Of a stretch of 64,000 bases of DNA, positions 36,507-45,063 are shown piece by piece; positions within the stretch are counted from its first letter, which is position 1; each line of letters starts with the position of its first letter. Position numbers and translations under genes: made by a program. The DNA comes from an uncultured Pseudomonadota bacterium. GTDB taxonomy: Bacteria > Pseudomonadota > Gammaproteobacteria > Burkholderiales > JALYOK01. The notes beneath the pieces were generated by a model, which was not told the DNA's origin, did not search any database, and saw only the letters and a list, made by a program, of their open reading frames with translations. Location: positions 21,495 through 85,494 of the forward strand of contig CAVQPB010000001.1 of assembly GCA_963714525.1 (NCBI GenBank), in the 5' to 3' direction.

Positions 36507-37334
36507 ATGATAACAATGCAATCTACGCCGGTGCACCGAGCGTTATCCTGGCTGGTATTTTCGTCTCTGAGTTACGTAGCGTTTGCCCACGGCGCTGAAC
36601 CGGATCCGCCCGTTCCAAGTCCGCCGCAGGCAACAGCGAAACCGGATACAGCGCAGGGTCCGACCGTTATACGCCGCCGCGTAACGATATTGGATGAATA
36701 CACCGCCTTGCCGCAAGGCGATAGCCGTAACCGTTTATTGCTTAATGTGACTTATTCTTTTGGCGCCAAACGTGACTATGGGTTGACCGTCGAAGTGCCT
36801 TACGCCGACTATCGTGCTGTACCCCTTGCCAAGTCCGAACATGGGCTGGGTGATATCCGCATGTTTTTGATCCATCCCTTCGCCACCCAGGGGAAACTCA
36901 TTCATTCTTACGCTCTCGAAACCTATTTCAACACCGCCAGCGAGCTGACGTTAGGGCAGGGGAGTACGACGTTGTTGCCGTCCTATGCGCTGACCTATCG
37001 CCATAGCAAAGCGTTCCAGCTCATCGGTCTAGTGCAGTATCAATTTGATGTGCAACGCGACGCGGGTGTGGATCGCACGCGTATGTTGAATCTTCGCCCG
37101 TTCATGATCCTGAATTTTCCCGGCGATTGGTATTCGATCTCCGAGGTTAAAGCGGTACTCGATTTCGAACACGATAACCAGTGGTCCGTGGTCGCGACTA
37201 CATCGCTCGGCCGATTATTTGGCGAACGCAAGCAATGGGCTGTGTTCGGTGTGGTCGGTGGCCCCCTCAATGATTTTGCCCATGACTTTGTGCAGAAATA
37301 TCAGTTCAAAGCCGGATTCAATTATTTTTTCTAG
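36507..37334 (+). CDS. Putative outer-membrane beta-barrel protein (C-terminal ...GFNYFF)
   Basis: Signal peptide, alternating amphipathic beta-strands and a terminal aromatic residue. Possibly the MetA-pathway/transport OMP family. Confidence 0.5.
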   Translation: MITMQSTPVHRALSWLVFSSLSYVAFAHGAEPDPPVPSPPQATAKPDTAQGPTVIRRRVTILDEYTALPQGDSRNRLLLNVTYSFGAKRDYGLTVEVPYADYRAVPLAKSEHGLGDIRMFLIHPFATQGKLIHSYALETYFNTASELTLGQGSTTLLPSYALTYRHSKAFQLIGLVQYQFDVQRDAGVDRTRMLNLRPFMILNFPGDWYSISEVKAVLDFEHDNQWSVVATTSLGRLFGERKQWAVFGVVGGPLNDFAHDFVQKYQFKAGFNYFF

Positions 37335-37361: not shown

Positions 37362-38798
37362 ATGGCCAATCCCCCATCGTTTCACATGACCGCCGAGGAA
37401 TTCCGCCGCCACGGTAAAGAAGTCGTCGACTGGATTGCGGATTATTACGAGCGGGTCGAGTCGCTGCCGGTGTTATCGCAGGTCAAACCCGGCGAAATTC
37501 GCGCGTCGCTCCCGGCGCACGCTCCGCAGCAAGGCGAATCGTTCCGCGCCATGCTATCCGACATCGATCGATTGATCATGCCCGGCATCACCCACTGGCA
37601 GTCGCCGAATTTCTTTGCTTACTTTCCAGCCAATACCTCGGCGCCGTCGATCTTGGGCGAAATGCTGTCGGCAGGGCTGGGCGTGCAAGGGATGTTGTGG
37701 GCGACAAGTCCAGCTTGCACGGAACTGGAAACCCATGTGCTCGATTGGCTCGTGGACATGCTGGAGTTACCGTCCAAGTTCAAATCGAGCGGCAACGGCG
37801 GCGGTGTGATTCAAGATACTGCATCGAGCGCGGCGCTGTGCGCGGTGCTCGCAGCGCGCGAGCGAGCGACGGATTTCGCCGTTAATGAACAAGGCGGTAA
37901 TGGCAAGCTGGTGGCGTACACCTCCAACCAAGCCCATTCCTCCGTCGAAAAAGCGGTCAAGATCGCCGGGCTCGGCCGTAAGAATTTACGGCTGATCGAT
38001 GTCGATGAAAATTTTGCGTTGCGGGCTGATTTACTGCTCGCGCAAATCCGAAAAGACAAAGCAGAAGGGTTAGTCCCATGCTTTGTTTCCGCGACCGTGG
38101 GCACCACGTCATCTAACGGCCTAGATCCGCTGCGGGCTATCGGCGAGATCTGCCACGCAGAAAATATTTGGTTCCACGTCGATGGCGCCATGGCGGGCAC
38201 CGCCGCGCTGTGTCCGGAATTTCGTTATATCCAAGATGGCGTGGAACTCGCCGACAGTTATTGCTTCAATCCGCACAAATGGATGTTTACTAATTTCGAT
38301 TGCGATTGCTTTTATGTCGCCGACCGTGCGGTACTGATCAAGACCCTTAGCATCCTGCCGGAATTTTTACGTAATCAAGCGACCGAATCAGGAGCCGTGA
38401 TCGATTATCGCGATTGGCATGTCCCCCTGGGCCGCCGCTTTCGCGCGTTGAAATTGTGGTTTGTAATTCGCCATTACGGCGTCGAAGGATTGCAACACCA
38501 CATTCGAGAACACGTGAACATCGCCCAACAATTCGCACGCTGGGTGAGCGAGTCGTCAACTTTCGAATTAGCGGCGCCCGCGCCGCTGAATCTAGTGTGC
38601 TTCCGCCACCGCGATGGCGATGAGATCAACCGCCGGATACTCGAGCGACTCAATGAATCCGGCGAAATGTACCTTACTCATACAGCGTTAAATGGAAAAT
38701 TTACCTTGCGCCTTTGCGTGGGTCAGACGCAAACGGAAGCACGCCATGTCGAGCGCGCGTGGAAATTGATCCAGGCTGCAAGCCAAGCACAGAGCTAG
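37362..38798 (+). CDS. Pyridoxal-phosphate-dependent aromatic-L-amino-acid/tyrosine decarboxylase (group II)
   Basis: ...HWQSPNFFAYFPANTS...S-x-x-K (NPHKW) lysine region. 478 aa, a good group-II decarboxylase pattern. Confidence 0.85.
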   Translation: MANPPSFHMTAEEFRRHGKEVVDWIADYYERVESLPVLSQVKPGEIRASLPAHAPQQGESFRAMLSDIDRLIMPGITHWQSPNFFAYFPANTSAPSILGEMLSAGLGVQGMLWATSPACTELETHVLDWLVDMLELPSKFKSSGNGGGVIQDTASSAALCAVLAARERATDFAVNEQGGNGKLVAYTSNQAHSSVEKAVKIAGLGRKNLRLIDVDENFALRADLLLAQIRKDKAEGLVPCFVSATVGTTSSNGLDPLRAIGEICHAENIWFHVDGAMAGTAALCPEFRYIQDGVELADSYCFNPHKWMFTNFDCDCFYVADRAVLIKTLSILPEFLRNQATESGAVIDYRDWHVPLGRRFRALKLWFVIRHYGVEGLQHHIREHVNIAQQFARWVSESSTFELAAPAPLNLVCFRHRDGDEINRRILERLNESGEMYLTHTALNGKFTLRLCVGQTQTEARHVERAWKLIQAASQAQS

Positions 38799-38963
38799 TC
38801 TTCAAGATATCTGGCCTGAGAGGCATACTGGGTGCGGCTGCTGGCGATGCCTCTCAGTACGAATTATCGCGTTCCAAAATGCTACACGACGCGATGTCCG
38901 AAAAGCATTGCGACGTCATCTCAAAATCTCCCAACGTAGCAAAGTTATTTCCAGAAATCAGTC

Positions 38964-39174
38964 AAGCCACATAGTTTGCTCGCTCTACTACTTTTGGCTT
39001 AATCCTTTTGGCATATTGTAGAGCGTTAGAAATACGCGCACATTCGCTACTCGTTGTACAAAGCAGCTCCCAGAGGGGCTGCTATAAAACGATGGCCTGC
39101 GATATGCGTTGCGCATCCAAATGATTACACATTGTTGGGTTCCTCATTCACCCCAATTTACCACTCTAAACTTG
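38964..39174 (+). repeat. Copy A of a ~205-bp direct repeat (putative shared promoter/5' leader), ~60 nt upstream of the protease start
   Basis: ~80% identical to 41494-41698. Conserved blocks include ctactacttttg(g/a)cttaatccttttggcatattgt, ttagaaatacgcgcacattc, ttgtacaaag, a conserved hairpin (cagctccc...ggggctg), ttgcgcatccaaa and cattcacccca. Confidence 0.7.
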
Positions 39175-39235
39175 TGCTGCACGACCAGTGTTTCGCTCGC
39201 GATTGACCACGAAGCTAACTGAATTGGAGAACGAG

Positions 39236-41311
39236 ATGACTACCGAAAAGATTCTTGCGACCATCCTCTTTTTACTAACGGCCAGCTTTCAAGCTTGGGG
39301 CGCGAATTTGAGCCTGCCCATCGGCGGCAAAGTGTCTGTCGAGTTGATTTCATCCGATGCGGCTTTCAGCGATTCGCTCGCGTTAGTGTCGCCCGGCGCC
39401 GCAATCGCGCTCACCGGTTGCAAAGTGGACGCCACAGCGTTTACAGGCTTAAAGCTCATGAGTGAGAAGGCCTCACAGCACGGTTGCCGCGTCGAACTCG
39501 ACGCCGATCCGGGCACGGCTGGAATACAAGCATTCCCGGCTGGCTCACTGCTACAGTTCAACCTATGCGCCCAAACCGATGCAAATCCGGCTACCTGTGA
39601 GCACGTGTGGTCGAGCAACATGGCGTCGAACTCCGATGGCTTTGACCATGTGCGAATCACGCCGATTCGCTCCGCGGAGTTCCCCAACCGGATATTCCAG
39701 TTGTCCTGGGAAGATCTCCCGGGCGGTGGCGACAACGATTTCAACGATCTCATCGCGGTGGTGCGCGTCGAACTAGATAGCGACGGTGACGGCCTGTGGG
39801 ACGATTGGGAACAATTCGGCGTCGACACCGATGGCAACGGCACGATCGATCTCAACCTCCCCGCGCTCGGCGCCAACTCACAGCACAAAGACATCTTCCT
39901 CGAAATCGATTTCATGGACTGCGCACTGGCGGGAGGGGATTGCGCAGCCGGTGATACGCACAGTCATCGACCGAAGGCGGCGGCGATCGCGGCGGCCGTC
40001 CAGGCGTTTGCCGACGCGCCGGTGCCGAATCCCGATGGAGTCAACGGGATCAATCTGCACATCGACATCAGCAATTCGGTAGCGCACCAAAATGCGCTGA
40101 ACATCAATGGGCTGTGCTTCGGCGGCGGTCCCGGCATCGGCAGCTTTGACGCTGTAAAGAATAACGCTGCTAACTTTGGACCAAACAATCCGCGGCGATT
40201 TGCCTATCGTTACTCGCTATTCACACATCAACAGTTGTTGACCACAACTAGTTCCGGCTGCGGGGAGTTACCCGGCAACGATTTTCAGGTGGCCCTTGGC
40301 GGCTGGAATGTTGGGCAGGGTGACCTAGATGGTGATGGACTTGCCGACGCAGACGTCGGAACCGTGCAGCAGCAGGCGGGTACACTTATGCACGAGTTCG
40401 GACATAATCTAAACTTGCGTCATGGCGGAAGTGACAACATTAACTTCAAGCCCAATTACTTGAGCATCATGAGCTATCACTTCCAAATGATCGGGATATC
40501 GCCTTCCAACCGAGTTGATTACTCACGTACGGCATTGCCTAATCTCAACGAAGGAAACTTGAACGAACCAGCCGGTATTGGAGACGGAACGGACAACACC
40601 AGGCATTTTTGTCCCAACAACACTCTGCGAACCGGTGTGGGCAATGCGGCCATCGATTGGAACTGCAACAACAGCACCCTAGATGCTAGCGTCGCCGTAA
40701 ATACCAACGCACAGGGTGGCTTGGAAGCGCTGGCCGGCTTTGACGATTGGACCAACATCAAATACGATTTCCAAAATGCGGGCGATTTTGAGGACGGCGA
40801 GCACGCATTCAGTGAGCGGGTTGCCGAAATCGACTACCCCACCGCCCTGCAGATCGCACCACCGACGGGCCCTAGCTGCCTTGGCGTTGCTGCAACCATT
40901 GTCGGCACCAGCGGCAACGACGCACTCAACGGTACAGCGGGAGACGACGTCATTGTCGGCATGGGCGGCAACGACATCATCAACGGCAGTGCGGGCAACG
41001 ATCTCATCTGCGCGGGCGCCGGCAACGACGCCATCAACGGCGGCGCCGGCAACGACAACATCGATGCGGGAGATGGCAACAATCAAGTAAACGGTGGCAC
41101 CGGCGATGACACCCTGACTAGCGGAAACGGTGACGACACCATAAACGGCGGCGGCGGCAATGATGCTATCTCAAGCGGTGCCGGCAGTGACGTGATCAAC
41201 GCCGGAACTGGTAATGATCGAGTAGACGCTGGACCCGGCGTAGACACGATCCAGGGCGGCGCAGGAATCGACGTCTGCATTAATGGAGAAACGATCAACA
41301 GTTGCCCGTAA
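39236..41311 (+). CDS. Secreted multidomain zinc metalloprotease: DUF4114-like N-terminal domain, metzincin-type catalytic domain, C-terminal RTX (haemolysin-type Ca-binding) beta-roll
   Basis: Signal peptide MTTEKILATILFLLTASFQAWG. The DUF4114 motif is ...EDLPGGGDNDFNDLIAVVRVE. HEFGHNLNLRHGG plus the Met-turn SIMSY fits HExxHxxxxxH. Around a dozen GGxGxDxxx nonapeptide repeats follow (GTSGNDALNGTAGDDVIVGMGGNDIINGSAGND...). The ORF track starts at 39188. Confidence 0.7.
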   Translation: MTTEKILATILFLLTASFQAWGANLSLPIGGKVSVELISSDAAFSDSLALVSPGAAIALTGCKVDATAFTGLKLMSEKASQHGCRVELDADPGTAGIQAFPAGSLLQFNLCAQTDANPATCEHVWSSNMASNSDGFDHVRITPIRSAEFPNRIFQLSWEDLPGGGDNDFNDLIAVVRVELDSDGDGLWDDWEQFGVDTDGNGTIDLNLPALGANSQHKDIFLEIDFMDCALAGGDCAAGDTHSHRPKAAAIAAAVQAFADAPVPNPDGVNGINLHIDISNSVAHQNALNINGLCFGGGPGIGSFDAVKNNAANFGPNNPRRFAYRYSLFTHQQLLTTTSSGCGELPGNDFQVALGGWNVGQGDLDGDGLADADVGTVQQQAGTLMHEFGHNLNLRHGGSDNINFKPNYLSIMSYHFQMIGISPSNRVDYSRTALPNLNEGNLNEPAGIGDGTDNTRHFCPNNTLRTGVGNAAIDWNCNNSTLDASVAVNTNAQGGLEALAGFDDWTNIKYDFQNAGDFEDGEHAFSERVAEIDYPTALQIAPPTGPSCLGVAATIVGTSGNDALNGTAGDDVIVGMGGNDIINGSAGNDLICAGAGNDAINGGAGNDNIDAGDGNNQVNGGTGDDTLTSGNGDDTINGGGGNDAISSGAGSDVINAGTGNDRVDAGPGVDTIQGGAGIDVCINGETINSCP

Positions 41312-41493
41312 GCGAGTGCGACAAAGGTTGGAGGAATGGCCGTGCGCCGTCTCCTCCAGCCGCGTTTACGGCGCGTTCGTCCAATGTTCGCCGAAAGCTG
41401 TGCGGCGCACGCCAGATTTGATTGCAACGGAACGCATAGCGGCGTCACCTCAAAGTTTCTCATCTTGGGCCAAGTCATTGGTTCAGGAATCGG

Positions 41494-41698
41494 TGAAGCC
41501 ACGTAGTTCGCTCGCGCTACTACTTTTGACTTAATCCTTTTGGCATATTGTGGCGGGTTAGAAATACGCGCACATTCTTCGTTCGTTGTACAAAGTAGTC
41601 CCTAGTGGGGCTGCTTTAAGGTGATGGGCTGAGATAAGCGTTGCGCATCCAAACGATTACGCGTGGTTGGGGTTCACTTCATTCACCCCAACCTACCG
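41494..41698 (+). repeat. Copy B of the ~205-bp direct repeat, immediately upstream of the next secreted-protein gene
   Basis: See copy A. Ends ~65 nt before the ATG at 41766. Confidence 0.7.
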
Positions 41699-41765
41699 CG
41701 GCCCATTGTTAGTTATCGGTGTACCAATTTAGTTGGTCGGGTTATTTCATTAAAAGGAGATTGTT

Positions 41766-42047
41766 ATGTTTAAGCTTCGTTTTCTTTTTGTTGCTGCCTG
41801 GTCTTTCTTGTTTTTAAGTATCGGCGACGTTTCGGCGGCCGCGTTGACAGCCGTCCCCGCGCGGGCCGAGGTGGGCGAGTTACGGGATCGCTCCCATGCC
41901 GTGGAGTTGGCTCAAGCTCAGACGGGTCTCTATGGCCCGTACGCCACCATCCGCCGCGCAAACGATGTCGCGAACGACTTTCGAAACCGCGGTTTCAACG
42001 CTCAGGTTTACCCCGAACAGGGCGCCTACTACGTCAAGGTCTGGTAA
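41766..42047 (+). CDS. Small secreted hypothetical protein (possible SPOR-like C-terminus)
   Basis: RBS AAGGAG. Signal peptide MFKLRFLFVAAWSFLFLSIGDVSA. The C-terminal ...YGPYATIRRANDVANDFRNRGFNAQVYPEQGAYYVKVW is loosely SPOR-like. Confidence 0.45.
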   Translation: MFKLRFLFVAAWSFLFLSIGDVSAAALTAVPARAEVGELRDRSHAVELAQAQTGLYGPYATIRRANDVANDFRNRGFNAQVYPEQGAYYVKVW

Positions 42048-42132
42048 TGTCGGCCGACGCTCTTCGCTGTGAGGTTTTTGATCTCGAACACATTATTAGG
42101 CTGGCGTATTCCAAAATGTTCAAGCCAATATA

Positions 42133-42417
42133 TTGAGCGGAGTGAAGCACATGTTCTGTCCTAAGTGCGCTGCGGAAAATCCCGATAAAGCTCGGTTTTG
42201 TCGGCAATGCGGTGTCGAGATGCGAGCAGTACAGGAACCGGCTAACAAGTCGCCCCAAGTACCGACAAAGCGCTTTGGAAGTTTTATCGGTGCTGCGGTC
42301 CTATCGACCTTCGGTCTCATTTTTTTGTTGGCGGGCCTGATGGGAGGTGATCCTAGCGCCTTTGTGCTAGCCGCGCCGTGCCTGATCGGCGCCTATTGGC
42401 TATTTACCAAAAAGTAG
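42133..42417 (+). CDS. Zinc-ribbon membrane protein (N-terminal CxxC-x12-CxxC, two C-terminal TM helices)
   Basis: MFCPKCAAENPDKARFCRQCGVEM..., then FIGAAVLSTFGLIFLLAGLM / FVLAAPCLIGAYWLF. Confidence 0.5.
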   Translation: MSGVKHMFCPKCAAENPDKARFCRQCGVEMRAVQEPANKSPQVPTKRFGSFIGAAVLSTFGLIFLLAGLMGGDPSAFVLAAPCLIGAYWLFTKK

Positions 42418-42504
42418 CGTGCGTCGACGGAGGAAAGCGCCGGACGGTGACTGTTGTTGTCGCCACCTAATTGAAACCCAGCAGCGTCATAGAAGGATGA
42501 CAGG

Positions 42505-43890
42505 ATGGCGATAGATACCGCCGTCGGCGAACAGTTCTTAGGAGATCTGATAAGGGCGGCCACCCGGGATGCCGCAAGTTTTGTGATGCCGGGCAGCGCA
42601 ATCGCAGCGTATTTGCTCGAGCGTGGCGCCCTCGCTTGCGCCAAGGCCGCGTGGGACTGTCTCCAGCAAATGAAGTCACAGCAACAACGGCAGCGGATGA
42701 TCAATGCGATGACACAGATTCGTCCTGATCGATCCAGGGCGATCGCGGAGACGGAGGTCGATCGCTACGCGTTCAGCCAACAGACAAAGGCCGAATTGAT
42801 CAACTATTTCTCCGCGATACCAATGACGTCTCGACATGCCATCAGCCGTCCAAATGACGGCGGCAAACCAATCACGCTGCTATCCCAGCTTCCGCGCACA
42901 CATACTGACTTGCTGCGCTTCATGCCGTTGCGGCCGCCGCGTTTTCAACCCGGCGATCAAGTGCCCGGCTATGACTATCGACTCGAGATCCTGTTGGGAC
43001 AGGGCGGGTTTGCTGAAGTGTGGAAAGCGTATCACGTCATCCAGCGCTCACAACCCGCAGTGGCGCTTAAGTTCTGCCTCGATCAGGCGCTGCTAGCGAG
43101 TCTGAAGACGGAGATAAAAGTCTACGACCAGCTTAAAGACCATCCCGACCCACAACACTTGGTCCGCCTCATTGGCACCGCTTATTCCGCTAGCTCACCG
43201 TTTCTTGTTTATGAGTACGTAGACGGTGGTGATCTGGCCGCGTGGCTCGCTGACTTCGCCGGGAAAACGCCGTCGGTTCGAGATGTCGTGCGCATATTGA
43301 AGATGACCGCTCGCGCTCTAGCCTTTGCCCATAGGCGCGGTATCGTCCATCGTGACTTGAAACCGGCGAATCTCTTGGTCACCCGGGATGGGAATGTCAA
43401 GGTGGCAGATTTTGGTATCGGTGCGATCACGGCCAGTGCTGAAGCCGAGCGTGAGCGAGGTAAGAGCGTCACTGGGGCAACCTTCTTGCAAGGGGCATAT
43501 AGCCCGATGTATTCCGATCCTCGACAACGCGCGGGCGAGGCGCCAGAGCCTAGGTTTGATGTCTATGCTCTCGGGGTCATCGCCTACCAACTGCTTATCG
43601 GCGACGTGACGCGGGAGATCGGCCCGGCCTGGCGTGCCGAGCTTGAGGAAAACAATATCCCGCCCAAAGTGCTCGATATGGTCGCCGCGTGCGTGGATGT
43701 CCCCTCGAAACGATTAGCCGATGCGGGCGCGCTACTGACGGCGCTTGATAAGCTCAATTCTGAGCAACTGAGCCAAGTAACTAGAGGTGAAACGGTCTCC
43801 GAGGTTCTAATCAACTATTGCATCCAATGCGGCGCAAAAATTCAGGCCGATGACAGATTCTGTACGCGGTGCGGAAACAACATCCGATAG
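42505..43890 (+). CDS. Hanks-type Ser/Thr protein kinase with ~150-aa N-terminal extension and C-terminal zinc ribbon
   Basis: GQGGFAEVWKA...VALKF (VAIK-like)...HRDLKPANLL...DFG...APE-like region. C-terminal CIQCGAKIQADDRFCTRCG. Confidence 0.8.
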   Translation: MAIDTAVGEQFLGDLIRAATRDAASFVMPGSAIAAYLLERGALACAKAAWDCLQQMKSQQQRQRMINAMTQIRPDRSRAIAETEVDRYAFSQQTKAELINYFSAIPMTSRHAISRPNDGGKPITLLSQLPRTHTDLLRFMPLRPPRFQPGDQVPGYDYRLEILLGQGGFAEVWKAYHVIQRSQPAVALKFCLDQALLASLKTEIKVYDQLKDHPDPQHLVRLIGTAYSASSPFLVYEYVDGGDLAAWLADFAGKTPSVRDVVRILKMTARALAFAHRRGIVHRDLKPANLLVTRDGNVKVADFGIGAITASAEAERERGKSVTGATFLQGAYSPMYSDPRQRAGEAPEPRFDVYALGVIAYQLLIGDVTREIGPAWRAELEENNIPPKVLDMVAACVDVPSKRLADAGALLTALDKLNSEQLSQVTRGETVSEVLINYCIQCGAKIQADDRFCTRCGNNIR

Positions 43891-44027
43891 CAAAAGACAC
43901 GTTCGGGATGAAAGTGGTGCTCTGTGGATCTGGCGTTATGCGCTTTGATCCTATGTATCAAGCGCATCTAGCCTAGATGGGGATCTCTCTCTGGTAGAAT
44001 TCTGAAAGATCAAATTGGGAGGAGTAC

Positions 44028-45063
44028 GTGATTCTCAGCATGCGACGGTCGCTATTCGGGCTCGCTATCGTATTGTTGTGCGCAGACTCGATAGTGCGCG
44101 CGCAAGAGGTGACACTAAAGCTACACCATTTCGTGCCGCCGACGGCTACTGCCCACGTCAAATTTCTTGCCCCTTGGGCGGACAGGATCGCCAAGGAATC
44201 CAACGGCCGCATCAAAATTCAGATCTATCCGGCGCTGCAGCTCGGCGGCACGTTACCGCAGTTACTCGATCAGGTGAAAGATGGCGTGGTCGACATCGTC
44301 TGGGCGATTCCGGGCGCAAGCGCGGGCCGCTATCCCGCCTTCGAAGCCTTCGAGTTGCCGTTCATGACCAAGACTGCGCAAGGGTCGAGCCGCGCGCTTT
44401 GGGGCTACGTGCATCTTAACAAGCTCGATCAAACGGAACTCAAGGCGTTCAAGTTGTTGGCGACCCACGTCCACGATGCAGGTGTGATTCACACCATCGC
44501 CAAACCGATTCGCACCCTTGCCGATTTCAAGGGCATGAAAATACGCGCGCCCACGCGCTGGACTACTAAGATGCTGGCCTCGTTCGGCGCGACGCCGGTC
44601 GGTATGCCAGTCAATCAAGTGTCGGAAGCGCTTTCCAAAGGCGTGATCGACGGCACAATTTTGCCTTGGGAAATCGTGCCTAGTCTGAAAGTGCATGAAT
44701 TGGTGAAATTTCACACCGAAACCAATCCGAGTTCCCGAGCGCTGTATACGACCTCATTCGTAGTGGCGATGAACCCAGCCAAGTATGCGAGCTTACCGGC
44801 TGATTTGAAGCGAGTGATCGACAATAACAGCGGCGTGGAATTTTCTGCATTGGCGGGAAAAATGTGGGATGATTCCGCTGCGCCCCATCGCAAATTGGCC
44901 CAGGCCCACGGCAATCAATTCATCCCTTATCGCAGGACGAACTCAAACTCTGGGCCACGGCGAGCCAGTCGGTAGCCGAGGATTGGATCCGCGAAGTCGA
45001 CGGCAAAGGATACGATGGCAAGGCGCTGTTGAAGAGCGCAAAAGAACTAATCGAAAAATATGA
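44028..45063 (+). CDS. dctP: TRAP transporter substrate-binding protein DctP-family, with an apparent -1 frameshift at a C-run near 44925
   Basis: Signal peptide, then the DctP fold. The C-terminal tail ...PLSQDELKLWATASQSVAEDWIREVDGKGYDGKALLKSAKELIEKYDSKIK is in a different frame after ...AHGNQFIP. The site is atccctta, where one more c restores the frame. Confidence 0.8.

What the first reader, a model, noticed from the sequence alone, without database searches (positions are those of the whole stretch)
38964..41765. Both repeat copies sit as 5' leaders of consecutive secreted-protein genes: candidate shared regulatory RNA/promoter
Copy A ends ~60 nt before the protease ATG (39236). Copy B ends ~65 nt before the ATG of the next gene (41766, a small secreted protein). 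Each contains conserved blocks: ttggcatattgt; ttagaaatacgcgcacattc; the palindrome ttgtacaaag; ttgcgcatccaaa(t/c)gattac; cattcacccca; and a hairpin, cagctccc-aga-ggggctg in A and agtccc-tagt-ggggct in B. Block conservation separated by variable spacers looks like a cis-regulatory leader (a promoter plus structured 5'-UTR, or a small RNA) placing both secreted proteins under common control.
Basis: seen in the sequence. Interest (0 to 1): 0.55.

Follow-up and report, generated by a model that had tools for sequence, protein, structure and literature searches.

The report
Duplicated upstream region flanking inserted protease gene
A non-coding stretch of about 265 bases that heads a small gene island for secreted enzymes was copied when a protease gene was inserted, so it now precedes two consecutive genes; it probably carries that island's control signals, but nothing shows it is a new regulatory RNA.

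Summary
The repeat is real. Copy A (38903-39165) and copy B (41435-41700) are direct, about 80-85% identical, and end 70 and 65 nt before the ATGs of a DUF4114/HExxH/RTX protease and a 93-aa secreted protein. There are only two copies in the window. No copies turned up in the plasmid, phage, viral, GTDB-genome or JGI-metagenome scans, and there is no Rfam match.

The element occurs in five closely related lineages, apparently Burkholiderales-like (closest named genome: a Burkholderiales MAG), always on the same strand. It always sits at the head of an island that ends with a Zn-ribbon protein and a Ser/Thr kinase. The secreted-enzyme genes between head and tail differ between lineages.

In relative L006, copy B still carries a fragment of the upstream decarboxylase gene. 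The two copies therefore come from a segmental duplication or recombination that brought in the protease.

As a whole, the element diverges as fast as synonymous sites. A central 74-nt block is more conserved than its flanks, though it is barely better conserved than synonymous sites. One hairpin is conserved in four of five lineages. No consensus sigma-70 promoter on the coding strand, terminator or ORF is conserved.

Most likely it is a duplicated promoter/leader region. This is an ordinary kind of feature and its function is unproven.

The parts
38903..39165 (+). Copy A of the repeated non-coding element. It lies 105 nt after the decarboxylase stop and 70 nt before the protease ATG.
41435..41700 (+). 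Copy B of the element. It lies 123 nt after the protease stop and 65 nt before the ATG of the 93-aa secreted protein.
38970..39043 (+). Best-conserved central block of copy A (alignment A2 columns 58-131). It holds the invariant 12-mers CTACTACTTTTG and GTTAGAAATACG and a 14-nt tandem direct repeat (38986-39013).
41502..41575 (+). Best-conserved central block of copy B.
39062..39083 (+). Stable hairpin AGCAGCUCC-CAGA-GGGGCUGCU in copy A. It has no U tract.
41592..41617 (+). The same hairpin in copy B. Two C-G pairs of copy A are U-G here and one U-G pair is C-G, so pairing holds only on the + strand RNA.
41665..41693 (+). 3' hairpin GGUUGGGGU-11 nt-ACCCCAACC of copy B. It is weaker in A and absent in L008 and L025.
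39236..41311 (+). Secreted DUF4114 / HExxH metalloprotease with RTX repeats. This is the gene enclosed by the two copies.
41326..41361 (+). 15-bp GC-rich hairpin in the protease trailer, a candidate terminator of the inserted cassette. It is 96.7% conserved in L006.
41766..42047 (+). 93-aa secreted protein of unknown family, with a conserved C-terminal 40-aa domain.
42151..42417 (+). 88-aa Zn-ribbon protein, part of the conserved 3' end of the island.
42505..43890 (+). Ser/Thr kinase with a C-terminal Zn ribbon. Homology with relatives' islands ends at 43894.
37362..38798 (+). PLP-dependent aromatic amino acid decarboxylase, the left flank. Its 3' end is part of the duplicated unit in L006.

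Best explanation
The element is the non-coding 'head' of a lineage-restricted gene island: head, then variable secreted-enzyme genes, then a Zn-ribbon protein and a Ser/Thr kinase. The island sits between a decarboxylase gene and a TRAP-transporter gene. The head most likely carries the island's transcription control region (promoter/operator) and the start of its 5' leader. The two copies exist because a protease cassette was joined in by a segmental duplication or by recombination between diverged alleles. The cassette consists of a 70-nt leader, the ORF and a hairpin-containing trailer. The event repeated the decarboxylase 3' end, the intergenic spacer and the head. As a result the protease and the downstream operon (small protein, Zn ribbon, kinase) each kept a copy of the same upstream region. 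Shown: the duplication is real, it is segmental in origin, the head stays modular across different cargo, and it is non-coding. Inferred: that the head holds a promoter or operator and that both copies are active.
For: (1) In L006 the protease trailer is followed by about 150 nt of decarboxylase 3' end, then the spacer, then the element. The repeated unit therefore originally went beyond the element, and window copy B has a deletion of about 290 nt that stops about 20 nt before the element. (2) The element precedes four different first genes: protease (winA), 93-aa protein (winB, L004-7), a 64-aa Zn-ribbon gene (L008) and a 231-aa lipoprotein followed by an M14 peptidase (L025). The downstream breakpoints all fall within about 40 nt of its 3' end, and two independent upstream breakpoints fall within about 20 nt of its 5' end. 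(3) The closest GTDB genome lacks the whole island; there the decarboxylase is followed directly by the TRAP gene. (4) The central 74 nt average 0.86 pairwise identity against 0.72-0.74 in the flanks (permutation p about 6e-4), with two invariant 12-mers and a 14-nt tandem direct repeat. (5) The protease trailer has a 15-bp GC-rich hairpin, so the downstream operon would plausibly need its own start site. (6) No ORF is conserved on either strand, and indels are not multiples of three. (7) Identities among all five lineages, including A versus B, are star-like at 0.74-0.83. This fits either an old duplication or the joining of two diverged alleles.
Against: No consensus sigma-70 promoter is found on the coding (+) strand in the element in any lineage; the only consensus hits near it are one minus-strand match inside the element's left end in L004 and one minus-strand match just downstream of it in L008, neither conserved. 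The best conserved + strand candidates are weak: an extended -10 TGnCATATT in 4 of 5 lineages without a -35, and TTGTGG-17-CACAnT. By eye, no sigma-54 or ECF-type motif fits. The whole element is no better conserved than four-fold degenerate sites of the adjacent genes (0.76-0.81 against 0.76-0.84), and the central block exceeds them significantly in only one of six pairs. No canonical terminator separates the decarboxylase from copy A, so read-through transcription is possible. There are no expression data.
Confidence: 0.55

Rival explanations
1. It is a neutral duplication remnant. The repeat is only the footprint of the recombination that inserted (or can delete) the protease gene. It has no regulatory role of its own, and each gene uses signals in its private 65-70-nt leader or read-through transcription.
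For: The duplicated unit included a gene fragment in L006. The element's divergence equals that of synonymous sites. There is no promoter consensus on the coding strand, no Rfam hit and no other copies. L007 appears to join the true decarboxylase end directly to the element and the small gene, as expected if the copies recombine or the protease is polymorphic.
Against: The element survives intact through at least four independent rearrangements whose breakpoints hug its ends. One of these is a deletion in window copy B that removed the co-duplicated gene fragment and spacer but not the element. Rates differ within the element, with a conserved core. One stable hairpin is conserved.
Confidence: 0.25
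2. It is a structured cis-regulatory leader RNA (riboswitch-like or protein-binding), or a pair of sibling small RNAs, transcribed from the + strand and acting through its hairpins.
For: The consensus folding energy of five lineages is lower than column-shuffled controls on the + strand (z -3.3, 0 of 200) and less so on the reverse strand (z -1.95). Eight predicted pairs show double changes, against 2.8 in shuffles (1 of 500). The main hairpin shows C-G, U-G and U-A at one pair, and its G-U pairs work only on the + strand.
Against: The structure was derived from the same 8-sequence, 5-lineage alignment, so the test is circular and underpowered. Single-sequence folds of the whole leader are not unusual (z about -1.6). 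Apart from the one hairpin, the predicted helices differ between lineages, and that hairpin is damaged by a 2-nt deletion in L025. There is no Rfam match even at E<=10. No terminator or own promoter is seen, as an sRNA gene would need. The distribution is confined to one narrow clade.
Confidence: 0.15
3. It is a mobile or dispersed repeat (MITE/REP-like) that happened to land twice in this locus.
For: An imperfect inverted repeat of about 13 nt lies near its ends (A2 columns 15-28 and 181-194). Short-read contigs break at the element.
Against: Only two copies occur in 64 kb. All copies found elsewhere are at the orthologous position and in the same orientation. There are no hits in the plasmid, phage, viral, GTDB or JGI scans. 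Homology between A and B continues past the inverted repeat. In L006 the repeat includes flanking gene sequence, which transposition would not copy.
Confidence: 0.05

Closest known systems
Segmental (Campbell-type or unequal-recombination) duplication of an upstream region flanking an inserted gene
   Same: There are two direct copies in the same orientation enclosing one gene. In a relative the repeated unit extends into the neighbouring gene. One contig (L007) is compatible with a form that lacks the insert.
   Different: The copies are about 20% diverged, as far from each other as from orthologues in other lineages. The event is therefore old, or it joined two already diverged alleles. The mechanism itself was not observed.
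Duplicated promoter / 5'-UTR regions that put paralogous or neighbouring genes under common control
   Same: The position, strand and distance to the start codons fit. The element is retained as a module in front of changing cargo genes.
   Different: No promoter consensus on the coding strand, regulator site or transcription start could be demonstrated. No regulator gene was identified.
Integron platform (Pc promoter and attI in front of exchangeable cassettes)
   Same: A fixed non-coding head is followed by variable, co-directional cargo genes.
   Different: No integrase gene lies next to it among the characterised neighbours. No attC-like site follows the cargo genes. Cargo junctions lie at different positions in each lineage, so recombination is not site-specific. 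L025 has one head for five genes.
Rfam cis-regulatory leaders, riboswitches and sibling sRNAs (for example duplicated CsrB-type sRNAs)
   Same: It is non-coding and duplicated, lies upstream of secreted-protease genes and contains a stable conserved hairpin.
   Different: It matches none of 4227 Rfam models. It has no own promoter on the coding strand or terminator and no repeated GGA-type motifs. The covariation evidence is weak and the clade very narrow.

Membership tests
Any Rfam 15 RNA family | Covariance-model score at or above the family's gathering threshold | tested here: not met
   There were 0 hits at gathering thresholds in the whole window. At E<=10 nothing overlapped either copy. 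At E<=1 nothing overlapped the copies in L004, L008 or L025.
Structured cis-regulatory RNA (generic) | A secondary structure supported by compensatory changes across diverged members | tested here: inconclusive
   Eight pairs show double changes against 2.8 in shuffles, and the alifold z-score is -3.3. However, there are only 5 lineages, the structure was derived from the same alignment, and only one hairpin is reproducible, in 4 of 5 lineages.
Sigma-70 promoter | -35 and -10 hexamers close to consensus with a 16-18-nt spacer, conserved in position | tested here: not met
   The tool scan finds no + strand match in the element in the window, L004, L008 or L025; the only nearby matches are on the minus strand (L004 inside the element's left end, L008 just downstream of it) and are not conserved. 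A relaxed scan finds only weak conserved candidates. This does not exclude an activator-dependent or alternative-sigma promoter.
Intrinsic terminator | GC-rich stem-loop immediately followed by a U tract | tested here: not met
   The stem is present, but it is followed by UAUAAAA, UUUAAGG or UCUAAGG. The scan reports no terminator in the element.
Segmental duplication | Direct repeats whose unit includes adjacent unrelated sequence, here part of the upstream gene | tested here: met
   L006 copy B is preceded by about 150 nt of decarboxylase 3' end plus the spacer.
MITE / REP-type dispersed repeat | Many dispersed copies, with terminal inverted repeats and target-site duplications | tested here: not met
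   Only two copies occur in the window, and all other copies are orthologous. There are no hits in public scans. Copy number in the rest of the source genome could not be tested.
Integron | Adjacent tyrosine-recombinase integrase, an attI site and attC sites bounding the cassettes | tested here: not met
   The characterised neighbours are a decarboxylase, the protease, a Zn-ribbon protein and a kinase by Pfam, with YceI upstream and a TRAP binding protein downstream; the adjacent 275-aa ORF has no family match. Cargo junctions differ between lineages. No attC-like repeat lies after the cargo genes. The rest of the window was not screened for an integrase.
Small protein gene | An ORF open and in frame in all lineages | tested here: not met
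   Every frame on both strands has stops in at least two lineages, and indels are of 1-2 nt.

The most novel reading that the evidence does not exclude
The element could be a portable, structured expression module: a promoter plus a leader RNA with a conserved hairpin and an invariant core. It would mark the 5' boundary of a cargo-swapping island and place whichever secreted hydrolase or oxidase is captured behind it under control linked to the Zn-ribbon / Ser-Thr-kinase pair at the island's 3' end. That would be an integron-like 'capture behind a fixed head' arrangement without an integrase.
Probability: 0.12. Interest if true: 0.55.

Novelty: new member of a known kind. Interest (0 to 1): 0.27.

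Why it matters
If the head is an active control region, it shows how a bacterium can add a new secreted enzyme to an existing regulatory circuit by duplicating the upstream region together with the insertion. It would also give a handle on what controls a variable set of secreted proteases and oxidases in uncultured soil or sediment Burkholderiales-like bacteria. If it is only a duplication scar, it is a routine footprint of recombination at a variable locus. Either way it is confined to one narrow clade and adds no new class of element on present evidence.

Tried and rejected
- Rfam: searched at gathering thresholds and at permissive E-values on the window and on three relatives. Nothing was found.
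- Exact-pattern scans for the two best blocks: GTDB genomes gave 0 hits. JGI metagenomes gave 2 hits, both chance by profile check. Viral contigs gave 0.
- blastn against plasmids and phages: no match.
- Profile (nhmmer --max) search of all 110 fetched loci and the window: only the orthologous copies were found.
- Upstream regions of distant homologues (47-58% identity) of the small protein (L012-L022), and of 70%-identical protease orthologues (L010, L011): no element.
- Searches of the window for the invariant 12- and 13-mers with 2 mismatches, looking for a shared regulon motif: only chance-level hits.
- Coding potential: rejected.
- Sigma-54, ECF, iron-starvation-box and Bacteroidetes-type promoter motifs: inspected by eye, none fits in spacing or conservation.
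- Constraint test against four-fold degenerate sites: no excess conservation for the whole element, and marginal at best for the core.
- Function of the 93-aa protein: no Pfam, NCBIfam, PADLOC or PDB-sequence match.
- One literature search gave nothing relevant.

Full report
**Observation**

The two copies are real. The repeat finder gives 38952-39139 and 41484-41671 (188 nt, 84%) with an extension at 39144-39162 and 41679-41697. Alignment and blastn extend the homology to about 38903-39165 (A) and 41435-41700 (B), at about 80-85% identity with a few 1-4-nt indels. Three of them occur exactly twice in the window, against 0 in shuffles. Copy A ends 70 nt before the protease ATG at 39236. Copy B ends 65 nt before the ATG at 41766. 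Contig L001, from a public run, repeats the order protease end, copy B, small gene at 98% identity, so this is not an assembly artefact.

**Genes**

- 37362-38798: a PLP-dependent decarboxylase.
- 39236-41311: a DUF4114 protein with an HExxH motif and RTX repeats.
- 41766-42047: a 93-aa protein with a signal-peptide-like N-terminus and no family match.
- 42151-42417: a Zn-ribbon protein.
- 42505-43890: a Ser/Thr kinase with a C-terminal Zn ribbon.

**Distribution**

Rfam finds nothing at gathering thresholds or at E<=10, and nothing in the relatives. The window has only the two copies. Pattern scans found no copy in the GTDB representative genomes. The JGI metagenome scan gave two hits, both chance by profile check. 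Viral contigs gave none, and blastn found nothing in plasmids or phages.

Copies were recovered only by walking from neighbouring proteins: L001-3 (the same species), L004-7, L008-9 and L025. With A and B this makes five lineages, with star-like identities of 0.74-0.83. A is as far from B as from any orthologue. Distant homologues of the small protein and 70%-identical protease orthologues have no element upstream.

**Context**

In the closest GTDB genome (L026, a Burkholderiales MAG with a decarboxylase 83% identical), the decarboxylase is followed after 120 nt by the TRAP binding-protein gene. In the window that gene lies at 44028. The stretch from the element to the kinase (about 38.9-43.9 kb) is therefore an island.

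Relatives keep the element at the head and the Zn-ribbon + kinase pair at the tail, with homology ending at 43894, but they carry other cargo. L025 has a lipoprotein, an M14 peptidase, a PKD protein, an HExxH protease and another lipoprotein behind a single element copy. L008 has an extra 64-aa Zn-ribbon gene. L107 and L108 have glyoxal oxidases, a Cu oxidase and a tyrosinase, but those contigs do not reach far enough upstream to show a head.

The downstream ends of homology lie within about 40 nt of one another (A2 columns 222-252). Two independent upstream ends lie within about 20 nt of each other.

**Origin of the two copies**

In L006 the protease trailer, 96.7% identical to the window, is followed by about 150 nt of decarboxylase 3' end, then the spacer, then the element. 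The repeated unit was therefore a segment of the chromosome, not the element alone.

Window copy B lacks that fragment and most of the spacer. The join lies at a short GCA microhomology, consistent with a later deletion of about 290 nt that spared the element.

L007 joins a true decarboxylase end (identical to L106) directly to the spacer, the element and the small gene. This is compatible with strains that lack the protease or with recombination between the copies.

Several short-read contigs break at the element.

**Constraint**

Four-fold degenerate sites in the kinase, Zn-ribbon and small-protein genes are 0.74-0.93 identical between lineages. The whole element is 0.76-0.81 identical, which is no better.

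Within the element, rates differ. Columns 58-131 (38970-39043 in A, 41502-41575 in B) average 0.86, against 0.72-0.74 in the flanks (permutation p about 6e-4), and there are two invariant 12-mers. Even so, this core beats the synonymous sites significantly in only one of six lineage pairs. The core contains a 14-nt tandem direct repeat.

**Coding, promoter and terminator**

- No frame is open in all lineages, and indels are of 1-2 nt.
- No consensus sigma-70 promoter on the + strand and no intrinsic terminator is found in the element in any lineage. The only consensus matches nearby are on the minus strand, one inside the left end of the element in L004 and one just downstream of it in L008, and neither is conserved.
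- The best conserved + strand candidates are weak.
- The invariant 12- and 13-mers do not recur elsewhere in the window above chance.
- The protease trailer has a 15-bp GC-rich hairpin at 41326-41361. If it terminates transcription, the downstream operon would need its own start, which copy B could supply. This step is inference.

**RNA structure**

Whole-leader folds are unremarkable (z about -1.6).

One hairpin is stable (z -3.9 to -4.5). It lies at 39062-39083 in A and 41592-41617 in B. It is kept in four of five lineages with a C-G / U-G / U-A series at one pair, and its G-U pairs work only on the + strand. A 2-nt deletion damages it in L025.

The RNAalifold consensus has 8 pairs with double changes against 2.8 in shuffles. 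Its energy is lower than column-shuffled alignments (z -3.3 on the + strand, -1.95 on the reverse strand). The structure comes from the same five-lineage alignment, however, and the other helices are not reproduced in single-sequence folds. The evidence is suggestive and underpowered.

**Verdict**

The most likely reading (0.55) is a duplicated upstream control region or leader of a variable secreted-enzyme island, copied when the protease cassette was joined in. A functionless duplication scar (0.25) cannot be excluded, because conservation does not exceed the neutral rate. A structured regulatory RNA (0.15) rests mainly on one hairpin. A mobile repeat is unlikely (0.05). This is a lineage-specific member of a known kind of feature, and its interest is low to moderate.

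Noticed in passing
window 38900-43894; L025 5372-14594; L107 96-10510; L026 10701-10831: The stretch from the element to the Ser/Thr kinase is an island that is absent from the closest GTDB genome. In relatives the Zn-ribbon + kinase tail is kept, but the secreted-enzyme cargo differs: proteases and a PKD protein in L025, glyoxal oxidases and a tyrosinase in L107/L108.
   Followed up: partly
L006 244-390: A fragment of about 150 nt of the decarboxylase 3' end sits between the protease trailer and copy B. It resembles the L025 allele more than the decarboxylase from the same sample (L106), which points to a mosaic history.
   Followed up: partly
window 37362-38798 versus 42505-43890, compared with L025: Four-fold-site identity to L025 is 0.55 for the decarboxylase but 0.82 for the kinase. 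The flank and the island tail therefore have different histories, through recombination or exchange of the island.
   Followed up: no
window 41341-41412 (- strand): There is a sub-threshold Guanidine-III riboswitch match (20.8 bits against a gathering score of 36, E 0.23). It lies antisense in the protease trailer and overlaps the trailer hairpin. No gene lies downstream on that strand, so it is probably chance.
   Followed up: partly
window 38986-39013 and 41518-41545: A 14-nt tandem direct repeat (TACTACTTTTGGCT / TAATCCTTTTGGCA) lies inside the best-conserved block and is present in all five lineages. It could be a regulator binding site.
   Followed up: partly
window 42505-43890: The kinase matches the PADLOC PD-T4-6 and mad6 (MADS) models and the NCBIfam MADS6 model only through the generic kinase domain; the NCBIfam score is far below the curated cut-off (PADLOC lists no cut-offs). 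The N-terminal 150 aa and the C-terminal Zn ribbon are unassigned.
   Followed up: no
window 40912-41271: A 27-nt periodic DNA repeat with 12 copies encodes the RTX nonapeptide repeats of the protease.
   Followed up: no
window 36507-37334: A 275-aa ORF between the YceI and decarboxylase genes has no Pfam or NCBIfam match. It is absent at this position in L026 but present in L025 and L106.
   Followed up: no
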